A stretch of 64,000 bases of DNA, from NCBI RefSeq assembly GCF_009914755.1, contig NC_060925.1, one strand, 5' to 3'. Shown here piece after piece: positions 22,095-62,080 of this stretch (position 1 is its first letter; each line of letters begins with the position of its first letter). The stretch is from the human T2T-CHM13v2.0 reference genome, Homo sapiens. The position numbers were made by a program, and so were the translations under genes. A model generated the notes under the pieces. That model had not been told where the DNA came from. It was given only the letters and a program-made list of their open reading frames with translations, and did not search any database.

Positions 22095-23671
22095 CTAAAG
22101 ATTTAAATAGAAAAGGGGAGTGGGAATCAGATCATTTGAAGGTGAGGGAAAGAACCTCCACGGTAGAAGACCTCCAAAGATACCATCCAAGGGTGTGGAA
22201 CCGAACTTGGTCTCTGCCAAAAGGGGAGAGCATCATGGCAGGCTTGTGGGCAGATACGCCTGAGCCTCCTGGTGCCGTGGGAGATAGAACAGACAAGCAC
22301 CAGCATCCAAGTACAGCATCTGAACCTTGGCTTGGCTCCCCACAAGCCACAGACTTCAGCAAATTAATATCTTTGAGCTTTAATTTCCTCCTCCATCAAA
22401 TGGGAATAATCATGATAGTAACAATGACCATACTTGCCCCAAAGACTGGCTGGGTATTAACTGAGATAATGAAAGTGAAGTTTTAGCCCAGGCTTGATAT
22501 ATGATAAGTTCTTAATAAAACAGCTAACTTTATATGGCTAGGTATTGTTATAAGCACTGCACATCTACTCTTCAAAATCACTCCGTGTGGTAGATGCTAT
22601 CATTATACCCACTTTATAGATCAGGAATCTGAGTCCCAGAGAGGTTATATGATTTGCTCAAGGTCACAACCAGTAGGGGGCAAAGCTAGGAGTTAAATGC
22701 AGGCCAGCCAGCTCCACAGCCTGAGCTTGTAATCACAACACACAGCCACTCAATGACAGCAGCTATCCTTCCTTACTAAATTGCAGGCATGTCACTGGAG
22801 CTCCATCCCTGGCCTCCACCCTCACCTTCCATATACCTGGGAGCCAAGACAGGTGCCAAAGACCCTGCAACCCCTTCTCTTTCTCTCCACTCTTCAACAA
22901 CTGCAGGAGCAAGAGTGGTGTGGAGAGGAGACGGGCCTGTGCTCCGAGCCCTGGGGATCCATCTGCTCAGCCCTGGGTTCGTCCCTGGGAAGGGTATGAC
23001 TTGGCTCCTGGGCCAAGCCCCTGCTTCCTGCATTCTCAAGCCCTGTCCTGCTGCAGTGAGTGAATGAGAGCCCATCACTCACTGGAAGACTTAACCTGGC
23101 CCATCCCTGGACCCGGAAAGAAACCAGCTCCCTGTGTCCTCCTGTGGGCTGGGGCTCAGAGGGGAGATGCAAATCTTTCCTCCTGACAGCTCTGAGGCTT
23201 GCAAAAATCTGAAGATGGGGAACTGAGGACAGTCTAGGAGAGTCAGAATCATCCCTTCCTTCCTCCTTCCCTCAAGATGAGCTACAGAACTAGATCTTTC
23301 ATCTGCAGAGGTTTCCACAGTATCCAAGTTATTAATTTTGTGAAAAAAATTCACTTAAGTCAATCCCAGCCCAGCTCTTTTTCTCCTGGGACTCAGCCTG
23401 CAATTTCACTTGACACTATGGAGCTTTGTTCCTTCAGGTGCTGGCTGCTTGCCAGCACCAGCCCCGCCTTCACCTCCACCCTCGCCTCCCCGTCTTCTGC
23501 CTCTCCTTCTTCCCCTCTTGTCTTGCTGGACTGAATCAGGGCTCCTGGGGTCAGACACCAATGCCCTTTCTCCCACCTGTGGTGCTGCCAGCCCAATGCC
23601 TGCCTACCCATCCCTCACCCTGCCCCAGCATCTCCTACGGACTTTCTGAAAGACCCCAAGAAGGAACTTAC

Positions 23672-23849: not shown

Positions 23850-24152
<303 letters not shown>

Positions 24153-31274: not shown

Positions 31275-32392
31275 GATGTTGTGTGTGCTATGGTGTGTGT
31301 GTGTGTCATATGTATGTGGTATGTGTGAATGGTATGTATATAGTGTGTATGTGGTATGAGTGTGTGCTGTGTGATTGTGTGGAGTGTGTGCGGTATGTAC
31401 ATGGTGTGTGTGAATGGTGTACTGTGTGTGTACTGTATGATGTGTGATGTGTGTGGTGTGCACATATGGTGTGTGGTGTGTTTGGTGTGTGTGGTATGTA
31501 ATATGTGGTATGCATGTGCTTGTAGTATGTGTGCTGCATGTGTGGTATAAATGTGTGTGTGATATATATGTGTGGTGTGTATGTGTAGTGTGTATAGTGT
31601 GTGCAGTATGTGATGTGTGTGATATGTAATACATGATGTTCATGTGTGTGGTGTGTGGTGTATACGTGTGCATGGTGTGTATGTGGTGTACGTAAGTGTA
31701 AGTAACATGTGTATAGTATATGTGTGGGAGATGTATGTGGTATATAGTGTGTAGTGTATGACTGATGTGTACTGTGTGTATGTGTGTGTACATGCTGTAT
31801 GTGTATTACGGTATGTTGTATGTACATGGTGTGTACATGTGGTGTATACCTGCTGTGTGTGTGTGGTGTGTATGTGTGGTGTGTGTGCATGGTATGTGTA
31901 GTGTATGTGTTATGTGTGAGTGGAGTATGTGTGTGGTATGTGGTATGTATATGTGTGTGGGTGGTACATGTGATGTGTATATGTGTGTGGTATATACATG
32001 ATGTGTGTGAGTGGGGCATGTGTGTGGTATATATGCATGTGTGTGGAGAGTGTGTGTTGTGTATGTGTGTATGGTGTGTATATGTGGCATGTGGTATGTA
32101 TGTATGTAGTGCATGTGTGTGTTGTGTATGTGTGTGGTGTGTGATGTATGTATGTGGTATGTGGTGTATGTTTGTGTGGCATGTGGTGTGTATGTGTGTG
32201 GCGTGTGTGTGTGGTATGTATGTGTGTGGTGCATGTGTGTGATACGTGGTGTGTATGTGTGTGGCATGTGGTGTGTGTGGTGTGTGTGTGTGGTATGTAT
32301 GTGTGTGGTGTATGTGTGTGATACGTGGTGTGTATGTGTGTGGCATGTGGTGTGTATGTGTGTATATGTGGTGTGTATATGGGTGTGTGTGT
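31275..32392. repeat. Degenerate (TG/TATG/TGG)n low-complexity tract in intron 12 (CA-rich on the transcript)
   Basis: About 1.1 kb of near-alternating purine-pyrimidine sequence. Confidence 0.95.
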
Positions 32393-32697
32393 GAGGGGAG
32401 GAGGGGTACTCTGGTCCAGGTACCGCTCTCGGGGTCTCACATGCTCCTGCTGCACAGGTGGGAGCCCCAGTCCAGGCCACTGCTGGTCTGGTTCTCTTTC
32501 TCTCCGTGACCTATAGAGCAAGGTGGAGGGGTAGGAGGGGGACACCCAGTGAAGGGTCCTTTGGCCTTGTAGTTTCTTAGAGGCTTCTTCTGGGAACATG
32601 TACTGGGAGCTGGGGTGGGTCCTGCACCTGCATGGGGCCATTTCCCTTCGTGGGCCCACAGACAACTGTTCCCCACCACGGAGGGAAGGAGACGCAC

Positions 32698-32909
32698 AGG
32701 GCCTGGGCCTTCTTCTCTGAGAACACTCTCAAGCAGAACTCGCCGTCTTTGAAGGGTTCAAATGTGGATGGCACCACCAGGTACTCCCCAGGGGGCAGCC
32801 GGGCCCGGCCAGAGACCTCCCGCAGGTTGACGTAGGTGCTGGTGCGGGCTGAGGGCTGGTAGGCCAGGAAGAAATCCCGGCCCAAGTGTGCGTCCGTGTG
32901 ACTCTCCAG
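32698..32909 (-). CDS. CAPN8: CAPN8 exon 12: [14 protein letters not shown]...[28 protein letters not shown]
   Basis: gtgcag|CTGGAG...GCCCT|gtgcgt, 212 nt. Confidence 0.95.
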
Positions 32910-51686: not shown

Positions 51687-51905
51687 CTGGGGAGGGGGGA
51701 CACAGCGGCTGCTCACATGAATAAGCAGATGTGTAAAGGGAGTCCCTCCAGGGGACCTCACGTGGGGACTCTGTGCCATCAGTGTTCGAGTCTTGGCTCC
51801 TTAGGAGCAGGACATGTGTCTGCCTTATCTGTGCACATAGGAGATGCCAGATGAACCCGGGAACATCTAGTCCAGGGTCTGCGTTTGTGCATCAGAGAAC
51901 TTGCC

Positions 51906-51924
51906 CAGCGCCACCTAGTGGCAG
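51906..51924 (-). promoter_or_regulatory. CTCF motif (reverse), intron 3
   Basis: Minus strand ctgCCACTAGGTGGCGCtg fits CCASYAGRKGGCRS. Confidence 0.65.
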
Positions 51925-52044
51925 CAGGAAGTGATTCAGACCCACACCTCCTGACCCTCAGTCCACAGGGCTTTCCTGAAGGCCACGTGGCCTAGGGGAG
52001 CTGGGAAGAGGATGGATGTGTGGATATCTGGATGGATGCATTAA

Positions 52045-52170
52045 AGCAGAGGTTCTCAGACTGAAGTGTGCATCAGAGTCACCTAGAGGGATTATTAAGA
52101 CATAGGTCACTGTGCCCCAAACCCAGAATTTCTGACGCAGTGGACCTGCAGTGAGCCCTAAGAATACGGA
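52045..52170. mobile_element. MER5A-like fragment
   Basis: gcagaggttctca...gcatcagagtcacct..agggattattaagaca. Confidence 0.6.
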
Positions 52171-52205
52171 AAACAGCAACAAAGGGCCAGAGCAGAGCAC
52201 AGTAC

Positions 52206-52324
52206 CTGAAAGTGAAAGATTCCCGCATAGTTCTCCTGGAAGTCCTGGTCCCTGGGGACCACCCGGTAAAGCAGCTCTTCATTCAGGGTCAGGGAGGCAA
52301 TGGCAGCCAGAAGCCAGCAGTCAC
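52206..52324 (-). CDS. CAPN8: CAPN8 exon 3 (catalytic Cys105): [40 protein letters not shown]
   Basis: gtgcag|GTGAC...TTTCAG|gtact, 119 nt. Confidence 0.96.
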
Positions 52325-52738
52325 CTGCACAGTGTCACAGGGGACACAGATTGGTCAGGCCCAGCCTGCAGGGGCCCTGCTTTCTCTGACCCTGTCCCAT
52401 TCAACCCAGAGTCCACGTTGCCACATTCCCTTCTGAGTCAGGTAGAGTTTCCTCCTCCGGTGCTGGAAATGCACCCGCAGCCATCAGCTTCTTCTGCCTC
52501 CTTGGGATTTGTTTACTCGGGAGTGGATCCTCTGCTCCTCCCTGTGGCTGCCCCCTCCCCCACATGCTGATCATTTCCCCACTCCTACACATTCAGCCAG
52601 TGGAGTGGAAAAGAAAAGAAGAGGAGAGGAGAGAAAAGAAAAGAAAATTAGTCCCTTTGGTCCCTTATTAGCAGCTCTGATTAAGTTGGTTGAGGGAAAC
52701 ATTGAAGCTGTTAATCCAATCTATGATGTGTACGTGTA

Positions 52739-52742
<4 letters not shown>

Positions 52743-52774
<32 letters not shown>
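52743..52774. repeat. (TG)n microsatellite
   Basis: Perfect TG run. Confidence 0.9.
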
Positions 52775-52777
<3 letters not shown>

Positions 52778-53882
52778 ATGTTCCTTGCCCCTCCTGACCT
52801 TGGATAATGAAGAGCTGGCTCTGCGTGGTCTGTTTACAGTATTGCCTTTTCTTGTTTCAGAGTTCACCAGGAGAGCCTTGATGCCTTATTGCTTAAAGTT
52901 CCCTTGAGATACTGCTTAGCATTAAATCATCATAATTTGAGGCAGAAGAAATAAAAGTCAAGAGAGGTTACAAATCCTGGGTTTTGGTGTTCGTCACATT
53001 GGAGATTCAAGGAAATGCAGAAGAAAACAGAAAACCCCTTTCTGTGCAAGTTGGGACCCACCACACTGATGCCACTGAGTGGCACTTCCCTGGGAGGCAT
53101 CGTTGTCCCTTGCAGTGTCAACTTCAAAAGAAGTAGCACGGGCCCCAGGCACCACTGCCTACCTTAGCATCCTATGGCGAATCTATCATCCTAGAAGTGA
53201 CGTAACTTTGCTCACCTCTACTTATTTGCTTATTCCACACCAGCTGCTGAGGTCTCAGTGTCCTCAAGCGTGCTTTACATCATGTGAAGGCTATTGCATC
53301 TTTCTGGCCTGGTACTGCTTCTTTCCACCTTCATTGTAGATCTCTAGCTCTAGGAGTCTAAGATTTGGTGAACAAGTCCCTGTTTCTCCTATTCATTCCA
53401 TTCAAACAGCTCCAAAGTCCTACCTGTGCATCTTAGCCTTTATCTTTTCCATATCAAAGATCTGAATCTTTTCAATGTGTGTTCAGATGGAAGGCCCTTC
53501 AACCTTTTAGAGACCATCTGTGGACCTTGTCTCACTCTAAGTTTTCTTTTAACACTGTGGCCAGAGCTATATACATATTCTAGGTGTGAACACATTATGG
53601 TTTTCTCAGAAAACCTGTTGCCTGAGCAAGCAGTAAGCCAGGAACCCACATCTGAGGAGCCAACATCTCCATCATCACTCAGAATTGCTCCATCACCAGG
53701 TCATCCTAGAAAGCCCTGGCCTCTGTCTGCCTGGATCTTTCCCAACAAAGTCATTCATGATCTGACCCCAAATTAATTAATTCCTCTCTCTCTCTCTCCC
53801 TCTCTTTTTGTCTGTCTGTCTCTCTCTCTCTCCCGCTCACTCGCTCTCTCTCTCTGTCTCACACACACACATACTCATTTAC

Positions 53883-57229: not shown

Positions 57230-58065
57230 TCCACCAGGAGATAATAATCCTGAATCAGACATTGTTAAAAAAGAATCCCTTAATTCAAAAATTCCCTTTA
57301 CACATTAAAATCAAAGCTTAAAGGTCGGGATGTCTAATGTTATTATAAACTGTAGGTAGCAAGAACTCGAGCTATAGCTTAATGGAATTTCTCAAACACC
57401 AAGGGAAGAAATGGAGATACTTCTGGACTGCAGGTAGAAAGAAAGAGGAAGGAAAGAAGAAAGGTCAGACATCAGAAACCCTACAGTAGCCCCTACATTA
57501 CCTTGAGGTTGAACAATGGCTGAAGTGGAAACAAGAGTAAAGCCTCAGGTAGTTTGAAGCAGAAGCCAAAGCAGGGAACATGTATGCCCTGCTGCCCATT
57601 CAGGAATCCAGAAGCAGAGTAAAGATGGCATCATGGAGCACTTACACAGAAGATGAGAGACAACGGAAGTGCCCCCAAGTCTCCCTCGGGTATTATGTAA
57701 GATTGAGCTGAGGGCAGGGAGGAAAAAGTCAGCTCAATCCTATTGCAGAGGTTGTGGGGTGGACCTCTGGGTCAGGCACTGAACGGAGGCTGTGATGTGT
57801 CATGTCTGCAGCAGTAAGGAGCACTCAGGTGGGGCTGAGTCAGCCAGGAAAGGTCCACTGGACCCTGAGGAAATCAGAAGAGACCCCACAACATGCCAGT
57901 CACATCTCCAGGAGGCCAGCAAGGACCCATAAGTCAGCACTAGGGTACGTAAGGACTAGCGGGCTTCTCTCATTGGTGGGAGGACATTGTTTGGCCTTCC
58001 TTATACCCACGTGCCATCCTAGGATGGTGGGGGAGGAACCAGACTTTACAAAGTGAGAAACCACC

Positions 58066-58428
58066 TGTTTTAGTCCATTCGTGCTGCTATAACAAAATAC
58101 CATACACTTGATGCCTTAGAAACAACAACACAAGTCTAGAGGCTGGGAAGTCCAAGATCAAAGCACCAGCAGAGTTGATATGTGGCAAGAGCCCACTTCC
58201 TTGTTCATAAATGGCTGTCTTCCAGTTGTGTCCTCAAACGGCAGAAGGGGTGAGGGAGCTCTCTAGGGCGTCTTTTATAAAGGCACTAATCCCATTGATG
58301 AGGGCTTTGTTCTCATGACCTAATCACCTCCCAAAGGCCCTACCTCCTAATACCATCATATTGGATGTTAGGATTGCAAGATATGAATGGCGGGAGCGGG
58401 GACAGATACAAACATTCAGTGTATAGCA
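58066..58428 (-). mobile_element. MLT1A-like MaLR LTR
   Basis: tgttttagtccattcgtgctgctataacaaaatacc...tatagca. Confidence 0.8.
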
Positions 58429-59085
58429 CCACTCAAATAGAGTAATTGAAAGCAATATTTATCCAAGAGAGGTAAGAACTTGAAACAGACAGAGGCATAA
58501 TACCTTTAATCGGCTAGTTTATGTTTCCCTCCCACTCATGGTCCATGGAAACTGGGGCTCCTCAGCAAGCTGAGAATAGTTGAGCAAAATAATGAATGCT
58601 GTGCTGATTGCACATCTGAGTATAATGTAAAGATTTTGACCCTGCTAATATATGCTTGTTTTTTAAAAATCTGTCTTCAATATTTTATCACAGCTGAGGC
58701 ATCCTTAGCCTACTCTTCCACAGAAGGCTGCTCTAAATGTTTTTATACACAGGGAGCTATTTCAGCTCTGTACATTACCACGAAGCAGTCACAGAGCCTC
58801 CCTTCCCCCACTTGGTGAACACGCCTTTTGAAGCCCTTGGCGTTTGATTCATGCCATTTTGACTACCTTAAAACACACACACACAAACACACACATACAC
58901 ACACTGATTTTTTTTTTAACCACTCCTTGCAGAGCAGGGCTAATTCATAGTCAGTGTGCCCAGAATCGACCCACACATTGACTTTTGACTCTATTTGCTT
59001 TGTTGACAATTCCCATCTCTCTGGCTAGACTTGGAAGCTGCCTGGAGGCAGACAGTGGGCCTGGTGGTTCTCACAGACCCCAGCA

Positions 59086-60632
59086 TAAAATTCTTACTGA
59101 CTGAATTCACCTCAGTGTAATTGTATCAAAGGTTATTTGAAAATTCAGACCTTGAGTAGTCTATCACTAGTAAAGCTAAAATTCTTACTGACTGAATTCA
59201 CCTCAGTGTAATTGTATCAAAGGTTATTTGAAAACTCAGACCTTGAGTAGTCAATCACTAGTAAAGCTAAAATTCTTACTGACTGAATTCACCTCAGTGT
59301 AATTGTATCAAAGGTTATTTGAAAACTCAGACCTTGAGTAGTCAATCACTAGTAAAGCTAAAATTCTTACTGACTGAATTCACCTCAGTGTAATTGTATC
59401 AAAGGTTATTTGAAAACTCAGACCTTGAGTAGTCTATCACTAGTAAAGCTAAAATTCTTACTGACTGAATTCACCTCAGTGTAATTGTATCAAAGGTTAT
59501 TTGAAAACTCAGACCTTGAGTAGTCAATCACTAGTAAAGCTAAAATTCTTACTGACTGAATTCACCTCAGTGTAATTGTATCAAAGGTTATTTGAAAACT
59601 CAGACCTTGAGTAGTCTATCACTAGTAAAGCTAAAATTCTTACTGACTGAATTCACCTCAGTGTAATTGTATCAAAGGTTATTTGAAAACTCAGACCTTG
59701 AGTAGTCAATCACTAGTAAAGCTAAAATTCTTACTGACTGAATTCACCTCAGTGTAATTGCATCAAAGGTTATTTGAAAACTCAGACCTTGAGTAGTCAA
59801 TCACTAGTAAAGCTAAAATTCTTACTGACTGAATTCACCTCAGTGTAATTGTATCAAAGGTTATTTGAAAACTCAGACCTTGAGTAGTCAATCACTAGTA
59901 AAGCTAAAATTCTTACTGACTGAATTCACCTCAGTGTAATTGTATCAAAGGTTATTTGAAAACTCAGACCTTGAGTAGTCAATCACTAGTAAAGCTAAAA
60001 TTCTTACTGACTGAATTCACCTCAGTGTAATTGTATCAAAGGTTATTTGAAAACTCAGACCTTGAGTAGTCAATCACTAGTAAAGCTAAAATTCTTACTG
60101 ACTGAATTCACCTCAGTGTAATTGTATCAAAGGTTATTTGAAAACTCAGACCTTGAGTAGTCAATCACTAGTAAAGCTAAAATTCTTACTGACTGAATTC
60201 ACCTCAGTGTAATTGTATCAAAGGTTATTTGAAAACTCAGACCTTGAGTAGTCAATCACTAGTAAAGCTAAAATTCTTACTGACTGAATTCACCTCAGTG
60301 TAATTGTATCAAAGGTTATTTGAAAACTCAGACCTTGAGTAGTCGATCACTAGTAAAGCTAAAATTCTTACTGACTGAATTCACCTCAGTGTAATTGTAT
60401 CAAAGGTTATTTGAAAACTCAGACCTTGAGTAGTCAATCACTAGTAAAGCTAAAATTCTTACTGACTGAATTCACCTCAGTGTAATTGTATCAAAGGTTA
60501 TTTGAAAACTCAGACCTTGAGTAGTCGATCACTAGTAAAGCTAAAATTCTTACTGACTGAATTCACCTCAGTGTAATTGTATCAAAGGTTATTTGAAAAC
60601 TCAGACCTTGAGTAGTCTATCACTAGTAAAGC
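59086..60632. repeat. Minisatellite/VNTR-like array, 17 exact copies of a 91-bp unit, in intron 2
   Basis: Unit taaaattcttactgactgaattcacctcagtgtaattgtatcaaaggttatttgaaaactcagaccttgagtagtc[a/t/g]atcactagtaaagc; 1547 bp = 17 x 91. Confidence 0.97.
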
Positions 60633-61741
60633 TTTCTGGGACCCGCTTTCTGTTTCCCCCCTTTTTCTCCCACTTCTGCCTTCTCTGGCTAAAATCAAAT
60701 TTTGGCATTCAAAGGAAGGCTCTGACTTGCTTCTCAAGTTTGTTCCCCATGCCTCAAGTAGAGCCTCATCTCCCCGACCTTCTGACACTCACCTCTCTGA
60801 AGACTTCGCGTATATCATGGTTAGACTCAGGTCTACCTGGATTTGAGAGACTGACTTTTTGACCTCCCACAAGCCATATAATTATACCATTCTTCATTCC
60901 CTCCAAATGATACAGATGCCAACCCACTGTGACCAGAGGTAATCTAGACTTTTCTGAACCTGGCAGACAGCAGCTTGACTGGGTCTCCAGTGCCCCCATC
61001 CTGCAGCCCTAGCACTATCTGTAGCCACACTCCACCTCTGCCCTTTCCCCCAGCCTAGCCCTGGAGCACAGATGCCTACCAGCCCTGGTAACGCCTGGCT
61101 CCAGCTCTGCCATGACTTCTTAGCATCCTCAGTACTCCTGTTTGCTCCTGTCACCTGCTCCCCTGATTCCCATCACCATCCAGCAGCAGCACCTGGGCAG
61201 GCTGACCAGGTGGCACATGGGACTGGGGAGTGAATGAGTCAGCCAGGTTCCTACTCCTGAGCACCCTAGCAGGATCCTCTGTTTAAGTTCCCGTCCTCTT
61301 AGAATCACTTAGTAAATCTCCCCCATCTTGCACCAGCCTCCAACCCTCCTGGAGTTCCTCTCCCTTCCGGCTTAAGGGGTAGCTCCTGTATGCCATCATC
61401 ACTCACCAGCACTTGCCAAGCATCACCATGTGCGGGGCCATCTGCAGGACACTGGGACAAGAGAGACCTAAAGATCACCATCTCTGCCCTTGAGAAGGCT
61501 ACAAACTTAGTAGAGTAGAAATAGCACAGGTTTTGAACTCAGAAATCCTGTGTTCAAAGCCCTGGACCCTTACTTGCCTGCTGAGTGTCTGGCAGCAATC
61601 ACTTGACTCCTAGGATTCTCAGTTTTCTAATCTGTAAAATGAGTTTGGACCTCACAGTTTATTGTGCAAGATCATCTGATACTGAGCAAAAAGGACTTAC
61701 TTGTAACAAGCGAAATGTTTAGGGATATCTGTATATATCTC

Positions 61742-62080
61742 CAGTTGGCCTTCTGTATCCATGGGTACCATATCCATGGGTTCAACCAACTGCAGGTTGA
61801 AAATATTTGAAAAAAATGGATGGCTTTGTCTGTACTGAACATGTACAGACTTTTTTCTTATCATGATTCCCTGAATGATACCATATAACAACTATTTACA
61901 TAACATTTACACTGTATTAAGTATTATAAGTAATCCAGAGGTGATTTAAAGTATATGGGAGGATATGCATGGGCTATCTGCAAATACTACATCATTCATA
62001 TCAGGGACTTGAGCATCTGTGGATTTTGATATTCCTGGGGATCCTGGAACCAGTACCCCACAGATACCGAGGGAAGACTG
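61742..62080 (-). mobile_element. MER2 (TcMar-Tigger MITE)
   Basis: TIRs cagttggccttctgtatcc / gataccgagggaagactg followed by TA; about 340 bp. Confidence 0.8.

What the first reader, a model, noticed from the sequence alone, without database searches (positions are those of the whole stretch)
59086..60632. 17 x 91-bp intronic array in CAPN8 resembles a natural TOPflash: one TCF/LEF site per unit
Seen: exactly 17 near-identical units, each containing ATCAAAGG (CCTTTGAT on minus). Established: this is the TCF/LEF Wnt-response core that is multimerised in the TOPflash reporter (AGATCAAAGG). Seen: each unit also has TAATTG (homeodomain-like), TTATTTG (forkhead-like) and, on minus, TCAAGGTCT (8/9 match to the NR5A/ERR motif TCAAGGTCA). 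The near-zero divergence implies recent expansion or homogenisation. Inference: copy number probably varies between people, so this could be a copy-number-tunable Wnt/endoderm enhancer or TCF sink inside a gastric protease gene. TCF binding could equally be repressive.
Basis: partly seen in the sequence, partly recalled or inferred. Interest (0 to 1): 0.8.

Follow-up and report, generated by a model that had tools for sequence, protein, structure and literature searches.

The report
Young intronic 91-bp repeat in CAPN8
A real, almost perfect 17-copy tandem repeat sits in an intron of the human calpain 8 gene, but its Wnt-factor binding motif looks like a chance word copied along with the repeat, so it is most likely an ordinary young minisatellite.

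Summary
Window 59086-60632 is exactly 17 head-to-tail 91-bp units with no indels and 99% match. Ten units are identical to the consensus and there are 8 variant cells in all. Each unit carries ATCAAAGG, TAATTG, TTATTTG and, on the minus strand, TCAAGGTCT. The unit occurs nowhere else in the T2T genome and the adjoining flanks are unique. It is a locus-specific VNTR in CAPN8 intron 2, not a transposon fragment.

The Wnt reading finds no support:
- The TOPflash decamer is in 0 of 17 units, and the optimal extended core is in 1 of 17.
- The forkhead and NR5A consensus patterns are not met.
- The unit is no richer in factor motifs than 20-30% of control windows.
- ATCAAAGG occurs 133,727 times genome-wide, no more than a reversed control, so a 17-site sink is negligible.
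- The array is AT-rich (33% GC), 28.8 kb from the annotated 5' end, and outside the listed RefSeq enhancers.
- Literature searches found nothing on it.

Binding, chromatin state and copy-number variation could not be tested. Best reading: a neutral, probably length-polymorphic minisatellite. Interest is low.

The parts
59086..60632 (.). Tandem array of 17 x 91 bp (1547 bp) in intron 2 of CAPN8. The gene is on the minus strand. GC is 33%, with 2 CpG in the whole array.
   Evidence: TRF gives period 91, 17.0 copies, 99% match, 0 indels. Intron 2 is assigned by counting 19 of 21 exons inside the window in the hub's gene table.
59086..59176 (.). Unit 1, the left edge unit and the most diverged, with 2 differences: C59T and A77T.
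60542..60632 (.). Unit 17, the right edge unit. It carries T at position 77, like unit 1.
   Evidence: The chance that both ends carry T, given 4 T among 17 units, is 105/2380 = 0.044 (my own arithmetic).
59126..59133 (+). First of 17 ATCAAAGG words (TCF/LEF-like core), repeated every 91 bp up to unit 17. It is preceded by T in 16 units and by C in unit 8.
59723..59813 (.). Unit 8. Its T39C change makes the only CATCAAAGG, the sole match to the extended SATCAAAGG pattern.
60269..60359 (.). Unit 14. G at position 77 creates one of the array's two CpGs; unit 16 (60451-60541) has the other.
58873..58904 (.). (AC)16 microsatellite in the left flank, followed at about 58908-58979 by a short dispersed repeat. 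It is not part of the array; 106 bp of unique sequence separate it from unit 1.
   Evidence: TRF. The own-genome search of the left flank found 232 first-look candidates, all confined to query positions 369-494.

Best explanation
This is a young, locus-specific minisatellite (VNTR). A unique 91-bp stretch of CAPN8 intron 2 was duplicated in tandem. The array then grew and was kept uniform by unequal exchange or replication slippage between the copies. The TCF/LEF-like word ATCAAAGG, like the homeodomain-, PBX- and GATA-like words, was simply part of the founding 91 bp and was copied along with it. The array most likely has no dedicated function. It probably varies in copy number between people, with at most a small effect on CAPN8. 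Shown here: the anatomy, the uniqueness of the unit, the lack of coding or RNA-family signal, and the lack of motif enrichment. Inferred: the mode of origin, the homogenisation, the polymorphism and the neutrality.
For: The array has exactly 17.0 copies with sharp borders and no partial unit or indel, as expected from tandem duplication of one unique segment. The unit is found only here in the 3.1-Gb assembly: a BLAST of the unit gives 17 matches, all in the array, from 1 first-look candidate, and a 44-nt pattern with up to 3 mismatches gives 17 forward and 0 reverse matches, none elsewhere. The right flank is unique. The left flank is unique over its last 106 bp. There are no partial copies elsewhere in the window. 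10 of 17 units are identical, the interior run of units 9-13 is uniform, and both edge units share T at position 77, with unit 1 the most diverged. This is the usual picture of interior homogenisation. Nothing points to another role. The longest stop-to-stop frame inside the array is 36 aa on + and 23 aa on -. There is no Rfam match in the array. The DNA fold z-scores are -1.4 on both strands. There is no poly(A) signal on either strand. The motif content is ordinary: 3 of 30 recalled factor patterns are hit, equalled or exceeded by 19.7% of 2491 windows, 28% of 372 GC-matched windows and 30% of 2000 shuffles. The array is 33% GC and lies 28.8 kb from the annotated 5' end. In Garg et al. only 2,980 of about 70,000 VNTRs were eVNTRs, and these were biased to high GC and to transcription start sites (abstract and one results section read). 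The hub's table lists no RefSeq functional element over the array.
Against: ATCAAAGG is a good TCF/LEF core and is not found anywhere else in the 62 kb of window outside the array. Seventeen copies in 1.5 kb is a very dense homotypic cluster. One preprint names CAPN8 among cell-state-interacting eQTL genes of regulons in which Wnt signalling was enriched in lung alveolar type 2 cells. Its supplement lists two CAPN8 eQTL SNPs at hg38 chr1:223623282 and chr1:223641075, which by my recalled and unverified offset lie within about 5-12 kb of the array. A VNTR-length effect tagged by those SNPs is therefore not excluded. Repeats of this kind are usually dropped by unique-mapping ChIP and ATAC pipelines, so the absence of an annotated enhancer is weak evidence. 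I could not test polymorphism, occupancy or expression effects.
Confidence: 0.8

Rival explanations
1. The array is a Wnt-responsive cis-element. TCF/LEF proteins occupy the 17 ATCAAAGG sites. Depending on beta-catenin or Groucho, they activate or repress CAPN8 or a neighbouring gene in proportion to copy number.
For: There is one WWCAAAG/ATCAAAGG core per unit in 17 of 17 units, all on the same strand. The 8-mer is absent from the rest of the window. CAPN8 is named among eQTL genes of Wnt-enriched regulons in lung AT2 cells (passage read).
Against: The TOPflash decamer is in 0 of 17 units, and the extended SATCAAAGG pattern is met only in unit 8. Sites are 91 bp apart (8.67 helical turns) and 28.8 kb from the annotated 5' end, not packed beside a promoter. 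The 8-mer occurs 133,727 times genome-wide, no more than its reversed control, so sequence alone predicts little. The array is AT-rich with almost no CpG and is not a listed RefSeq element. Searches for CAPN8+TCF7L2 and CAPN8+'Wnt target' gave nothing on this array, and VNTR+TOPflash gave 2 papers that from title and abstract start concern other subjects. From recall: calpain 8 is made mainly in gastric pit cells, where Wnt activity is low.
Confidence: 0.04
2. The array affects CAPN8 expression in cis through something other than TCF. Candidates are homeodomain, PBX or GATA factors, AT-rich chromatin or nucleosome positioning, or simply its variable length.
For: Each unit matches the recalled homeodomain (TAATKR) and PBX (TGATTGAY) patterns. 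The four T77 units match WGATAR instead of PBX. About 4% of tested VNTRs were eVNTRs in Garg et al.. CAPN8 eQTL SNPs exist in the same part of the gene.
Against: Motif content is no higher than in 20-30% of controls. eVNTRs are biased to high GC and to transcription start sites, the opposite of this array. CAPN8 does not occur in the held supplements of Lu et al. 2023 or the 2024 Cell Genomics VNTR study. Coordinate prefixes built from my recalled hg38 offset gave no hit in the Lu et al. files. One Lu et al. file could not be searched.
Confidence: 0.1
3. The array acts on the pre-mRNA. Seventeen copies of a 5' splice-site-like word on the sense strand bind U1 snRNP or seed cryptic exons in intron 2.
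For: On the transcribed (minus) strand each unit has GAG|GTGAAT, a 7 of 9 match to the recalled MAG|GTRAGT consensus, plus two 6 of 9 matches.
Against: Matches of 7 of 9 are common in introns. My scan found no acceptor-like AG with a pyrimidine tract of at least 11 of 16 in the unit. The hub's table lists no alternative exon here. There are no poly(A) signals that would need suppressing.
Confidence: 0.03
4. The array is a titrating sink for TCF proteins.
For: Only the 17 identical sites.
Against: 17 sites among 133,727 identical 8-mers is 0.013% of the genome's supply.
Confidence: 0.005
5. The array is an assembly artefact, with copy number or uniformity created by the assembler.
For: None found.
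Against: The array is 1.5 kb, has unique flanks on both sides and carries unit-specific variants that anchor its order. From recall: this is far shorter than the long reads used for this assembly.
Confidence: 0.01

Closest known systems
Human intronic minisatellites / VNTRs, for example the 72-mer intronic SIRT3 VNTR and the CACNA1C intron 3 VNTR (named)
   Same: Head-to-tail units of tens of bases lie in an intron and arose from unique sequence. Unit identity is high, with the variants patterned along the array.
   Different: For those loci, copy-number polymorphism and an expression or disease link are documented. For this array neither has been shown, and I found no paper that describes it.
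TOPflash / Super TOPflash reporters (multimerised TCF sites; details recalled)
   Same: There are many same-strand copies of a TCF/LEF core (ATCAAAGG) at a fixed spacing.
   Different: The TOPflash decamer AGATCAAAGG is in 0 of 17 units. Spacing is 91 bp rather than roughly a helical turn or two. There is no adjacent minimal promoter: the array is 28.8 kb from the annotated 5' end. The sites sit in native AT-rich intronic DNA.
Repeat-borne transcription factor site arrays, for example GGAA microsatellites used by EWS-FLI1 (recalled)
   Same: The idea is the same: a repeat multiplies a factor site so that copy number tunes enhancer strength.
   Different: Those cases have demonstrated binding and length-dependent activity. 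Here nothing beyond the motif is shown.

Membership tests
VNTR / minisatellite | Head-to-tail tandem copies of a unit of about 10-100 bp | tested here: met
   Period 91, 17.0 copies, 99% match, 0 indels
VNTR / minisatellite | Locus-specific unit, not a dispersed or transposon-borne repeat | tested here: met
   All 17 BLAST matches and all 17 pattern matches in the 3.1-Gb assembly lie in the array. The flanks are unique. Very old, diverged transposon ancestry cannot be excluded with a 91-nt query.
VNTR / minisatellite | Copy number varies between individuals | not testable with these tools
   Only one human assembly is available. No hit for CAPN8 in the held VNTR supplements.
Wnt-responsive element (TCF/LEF-bound enhancer; TOPflash-like) | TCF/LEF core WWCAAAG present | tested here: met
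   ATCAAAGG in 17 of 17 units. The core also occurs in 6.7% of ordinary 91-bp windows.
Wnt-responsive element (TCF/LEF-bound enhancer; TOPflash-like) | Optimal extended site (SATCAAAGG; TOPflash AGATCAAAGG; both recalled) | tested here: not met
   The decamer is in 0 of 17 units. SATCAAAGG is met in 1 of 17 (unit 8).
Wnt-responsive element (TCF/LEF-bound enhancer; TOPflash-like) | TCF/beta-catenin occupancy and open, acetylated chromatin | not testable with these tools
   No ChIP or ATAC data are available. The hub's table lists no RefSeq functional element over 59086-60632.
Wnt-responsive element (TCF/LEF-bound enhancer; TOPflash-like) | Wnt-dependent, motif-dependent transcriptional activity | not testable with these tools
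   This needs reporter or CRISPR experiments.
NR5A/ERR response element | TCAAGGTCA (extended AGGTCA half-site; recalled) | tested here: not met
   TCAAGGTCA and AGGTCA are in 0 of 17 units. The unit has TCAAGGTCT, which breaks the half-site's last base.
Forkhead site | TRTTKRY / TRTTTRY core (recalled) | tested here: not met
   The unit's TTATTTGA fails the last position. There are no hits on either strand.
Coding repeat or structured RNA | Open frame through the units, or a match to an RNA family | tested here: not met
   The longest frame is 36 aa. There is no Rfam hit in the array. Fold z-score is -1.4.

The most novel reading that the evidence does not exclude
The array is a naturally multimerised TCF/LEF element whose copy number sets the strength of Wnt-dependent activation, or Groucho-dependent repression, of CAPN8 in Wnt-active epithelia such as lung alveolar type 2 or gastrointestinal progenitor cells. 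If so, it would underlie the CAPN8 eQTL signal seen nearby, as a human, length-tunable Wnt enhancer hidden from unique-mapping assays.
Probability: 0.04. Interest if true: 0.6.

Novelty: new member of a known kind. Interest (0 to 1): 0.15.

Why it matters
If the ordinary reading is right, this is one more intronic minisatellite. It is useful mainly as a likely multi-allelic marker in CAPN8, and as a caution that any repeat multiplies whatever short factor words its founding unit happened to contain. If the array does bind TCF proteins in proportion to its length, it would be a rare natural example of copy-number-tuned Wnt regulation. It would also be a candidate causal variant for CAPN8 expression differences. 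Nothing found here points that way.

Tried and rejected
**Origin and other roles, all negative**
- Transposon or dispersed-repeat origin: rejected. The unit matches only this array genome-wide, and there are no partial copies in the window.
- Coding repeat: rejected, with frames of at most 36 aa.
- Structured RNA: no Rfam hit in the array. The only hit in 58000-62000 is SCARNA7 at 19 bits against a gathering score of 65, in the left flank.
- Hairpin-prone DNA as a driver of expansion: fold z-scores of -1.4 are not notable.

**Higher-order structure**
- A 182-bp period is hinted at by T-A-T-A and G-A-G at position 77. I judged the pattern too weak to claim: two G at distance 2 has a chance of about 15/136 (my own arithmetic), and TRF reports only period 91.

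**Literature**
- CAPN8 with VNTR (2 papers), tandem repeat (6), TCF7L2 (13), structural variant (11) and 'Wnt target' (1): none concerns this array, judged from titles, abstract starts and the two passages I read.
- VNTR + TOPflash: 2 papers that look unrelated from title and abstract start.
- VNTR + 'TCF LEF' + Wnt + luciferase: 0 papers, but the slash form of the term may not have been matched.

**Supplements**
- No CAPN8 in the held files of Course et al. 2021, Lu et al. 2023 or the 2024 Cell Genomics study.
- Coordinate prefixes 223633-223638, built from my recalled hg38 offset, gave no hit in Course et al. or Lu et al..
- One file in each of Course et al. and Lu et al. was not searchable.

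**Not available**
- Sulovari et al. 2019 is not held.
- bioRxiv supplements are closed, so Garg et al. Table S4 was not seen.
- The search of earlier findings was not open.
- Paper reading closed, so I could not place the GRCh38 gap in CAPN8 relative to the array.

Full report
**Observation**

Tandem Repeats Finder finds one array at 59086-60633 with period 91, 17.0 copies, 99% matches, no indels and score 3040. It is by far the largest tandem repeat in the 64-kb window. Cutting from 59086 in steps of 91 gives 17 units ending at 60632. The next 91 bases differ from the consensus at 72 of 91 positions, so the borders are sharp and the copy number is a whole number.

Ten of 17 units equal the consensus. 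The 8 variant cells are:
- C59T in unit 1;
- T39C in unit 8;
- six cells at unit position 77, which reads T A A T A T A A A A A A A G A G T along the array.

The G variant creates the array's only two CpGs. Mean pairwise difference is 0.78 per unit (0.86%), or 0.26% without position 77.

A 47-nt half-unit matches 17 times, against 0 in 100 shuffles.

**What it is**

The unit is specific to this locus.
- A BLAST of the 91-nt unit against the whole 3.1-Gb assembly returns 17 matches, all in the array, from a single first-look candidate.
- A 44-nt pattern allowing 3 mismatches returns 17 forward and 0 reverse matches, none elsewhere, with 0 for the reversed control.
- The 600 bp to the right are unique.
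- The 600 bp to the left are unique except for an (AC)16 microsatellite and a short dispersed repeat at about 58854-58979, which ends 106 bp before unit 1.
- No partial copy of the unit lies elsewhere in the window.

By the hub's gene table, 19 of the 21 exons of NM_001143962.2 lie in the window and the last is at 52206-52324. The array therefore sits in intron 2 of CAPN8 (minus strand), 6.8 kb from exon 3 and 28.8 kb from the annotated 5' end. It is an AT-rich island: 33% GC against 43-51% in the flanks.

It does not look like anything other than a repeat.
- It is not coding: the longest stop-to-stop frame is 36 aa on + and 23 aa on -.
- It matches no Rfam family. The only hit nearby is a sub-threshold SCARNA7 match in the left flank.
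- It folds no better than shuffles, with z = -1.4 on both strands.
- It carries no poly(A) signal.

**How it arose (inference)**

A whole number of copies of a unique segment, with sharp borders, is what tandem duplication of one 91-bp stretch followed by unequal exchange or slippage would leave. The interior is uniform and units 9-13 are identical. Both edge units carry T at position 77, and unit 1 is the most diverged. Given 4 T among 17 units, both ends being T has a chance of 105/2380 = 0.044 (my own arithmetic). This fits the established picture that exchange homogenises the interior of an array more than its ends, and it suggests T is the older state.

The near-zero divergence is less informative than it looks, because the unit is short. 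Assuming a recalled mutation rate of 1.2e-8 per base per generation and a star tree, ten identical units only bound their common ancestor to within about 274,000 generations at 95%. Such pure arrays are generally length-polymorphic (established knowledge). I could not test that here, because only one human assembly is available.

**The Wnt reading**

One TCF/LEF core per unit is a fact, but the resemblance to TOPflash is loose.
- The TOPflash decamer AGATCAAAGG is in 0 of 17 units. Sixteen units read TATCAAAGG, and only unit 8 matches the extended pattern SATCAAAGG.
- The forkhead consensus (TRTTTRY or TRTTKRY) is not met by the unit.
- The nuclear receptor half-site AGGTCA is absent, because TCAAGGTCT breaks its last base.
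- These consensus patterns are recalled, not taken from a tool.

On chance: outside the array, WWCAAAG occurs in 6.7% and ATCAAAG in 1.2% of 91-bp windows. ATCAAAGG occurs 0 times in 62 kb. That specific word is therefore uncommon, but it was picked after the fact from the hundreds of known factor motifs. I scanned a panel of 30 recalled factor patterns. The unit hits 3 of them (TCF/LEF, homeodomain, PBX). The four T77 units swap PBX for a GATA match. Three or more hits are seen in 19.7% of 2491 control windows, 28% of 372 GC-matched windows and 30% of 2000 shuffles of the unit. The unit is not motif-rich; the repeat has multiplied an ordinary 91 bp.

Genome-wide, ATCAAAGG occurs 60,714 + 73,013 = 133,727 times, against 133,775 for the reversed control. 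The word alone therefore predicts little, and 17 sites (0.013%) cannot act as a sink.

Sites are 91 bp apart (8.67 helical turns) and far from any annotated promoter.

**Outside evidence**

In the Garg et al. preprint I read the abstract and one results section. 2,980 of about 70,000 VNTRs were eVNTRs, and these were biased towards high GC content and enriched 7.9-fold within 2 kb of transcription start sites. This array has the opposite properties. The hub's table lists RefSeq enhancers at 23468-23517, 23918-23977 and 51797-52996 and a silencer at 51839-51948. None overlaps the array, but repeats are poorly served by unique-mapping assays, so this is weak evidence.

Literature searches:
- CAPN8 with VNTR, tandem repeat, TCF7L2, structural variant or 'Wnt target' returned 2, 6, 13, 11 and 1 papers. 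Judged from the listings and the passages read, none deals with this array.
- VNTR with TOPflash returned 2 papers that look unrelated from title and abstract start.
- CAPN8 does not occur in the held supplements of Course et al. 2021, Lu et al. 2023 or the 2024 Cell Genomics VNTR study.
- Coordinate prefixes built from my recalled hg38 offset gave no hit in Course et al. or Lu et al.. One file in each of these two papers could not be searched.

[quoted passage not shown] It lists CAPN8 SNPs at hg38 chr1:223623282 and chr1:223641075. By my recalled, unverified offset between hg38 and T2T, these lie roughly 12 kb and 5 kb from the array. This shows that CAPN8 has cis-regulatory variation in this part of the gene. 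It does not implicate the array.

**Verdict**

This is a real, tidy and probably length-polymorphic minisatellite of recent origin in CAPN8 intron 2, most likely neutral (confidence 0.8). A cis effect of some kind has about 0.1 probability, a true TCF/Wnt element about 0.04, and a sink is effectively excluded on numbers. It belongs to a well-known kind (VNTR) and is not described in the papers I could search. Interest is low (0.15). The decisive tests are pangenome and ape genotyping, T2T-aligned multimap-aware ChIP and ATAC, a length-eQTL analysis and reporters. All lie outside these tools.

**Limits**

- Paper reading closed, so I could not see where the GRCh38 gap that lies in CAPN8 falls relative to the array.
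- bioRxiv supplements are closed, so Garg et al. Table S4 was not seen.
- The search of earlier findings was not open.

Noticed in passing
CAPN8 gene as a whole (window 14346 onward): A paper on closing reference gaps lists CAPN8 among 11 protein-coding genes that contain a GRCh38 assembly gap (PMC7407462, passage read). Older reference-based catalogues and ChIP tracks may therefore be incomplete for part of this gene. I could not establish where the gap lies relative to the array.
   Followed up: partly
window 31854-32393 (also 31343-31475): A degenerate (TG)n-rich complex repeat of about 540 bp, with nested 13-bp and 79-bp periodicities, lies about 300 bp from the exon at 32698-32909.
   Followed up: no
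window 58854-58979: An (AC)16 microsatellite is followed by a roughly 60-70 bp segment that matches many places in the genome at 81-95% identity (232 first-look candidates, 40 scored). It is a fragment of an unidentified dispersed repeat. A sub-threshold SCARNA7 match (19 bits against 65) overlaps it on the minus strand.
   Followed up: no
whole genome (G000): ATCAAAGG shows a strand asymmetry in the assembly, with 60,714 forward against 73,013 reverse. Its reversed control is symmetric at 66,602 against 67,173. Copies inside some strand-biased satellite family might explain this; I did not examine it.
   Followed up: no
window 59086-60632, unit position 77: The single hypervariable position of the unit toggles three different factor-like words on the minus strand: A gives TGATTGAC (PBX-like), T gives TGATAG (GATA-like) and G gives a CpG. 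This shows how easily motif readings change with one base.
   Followed up: partly
outside the window: hg38 chr1:223623282 and chr1:223641075: Two CAPN8 cell-state-interacting eQTL SNPs (rs61825179, rs12127418) are reported in lung alveolar cells (PMC13041904 supplement). By a recalled offset they flank the array within about 5-12 kb. Linkage with array length is unknown.
   Followed up: no
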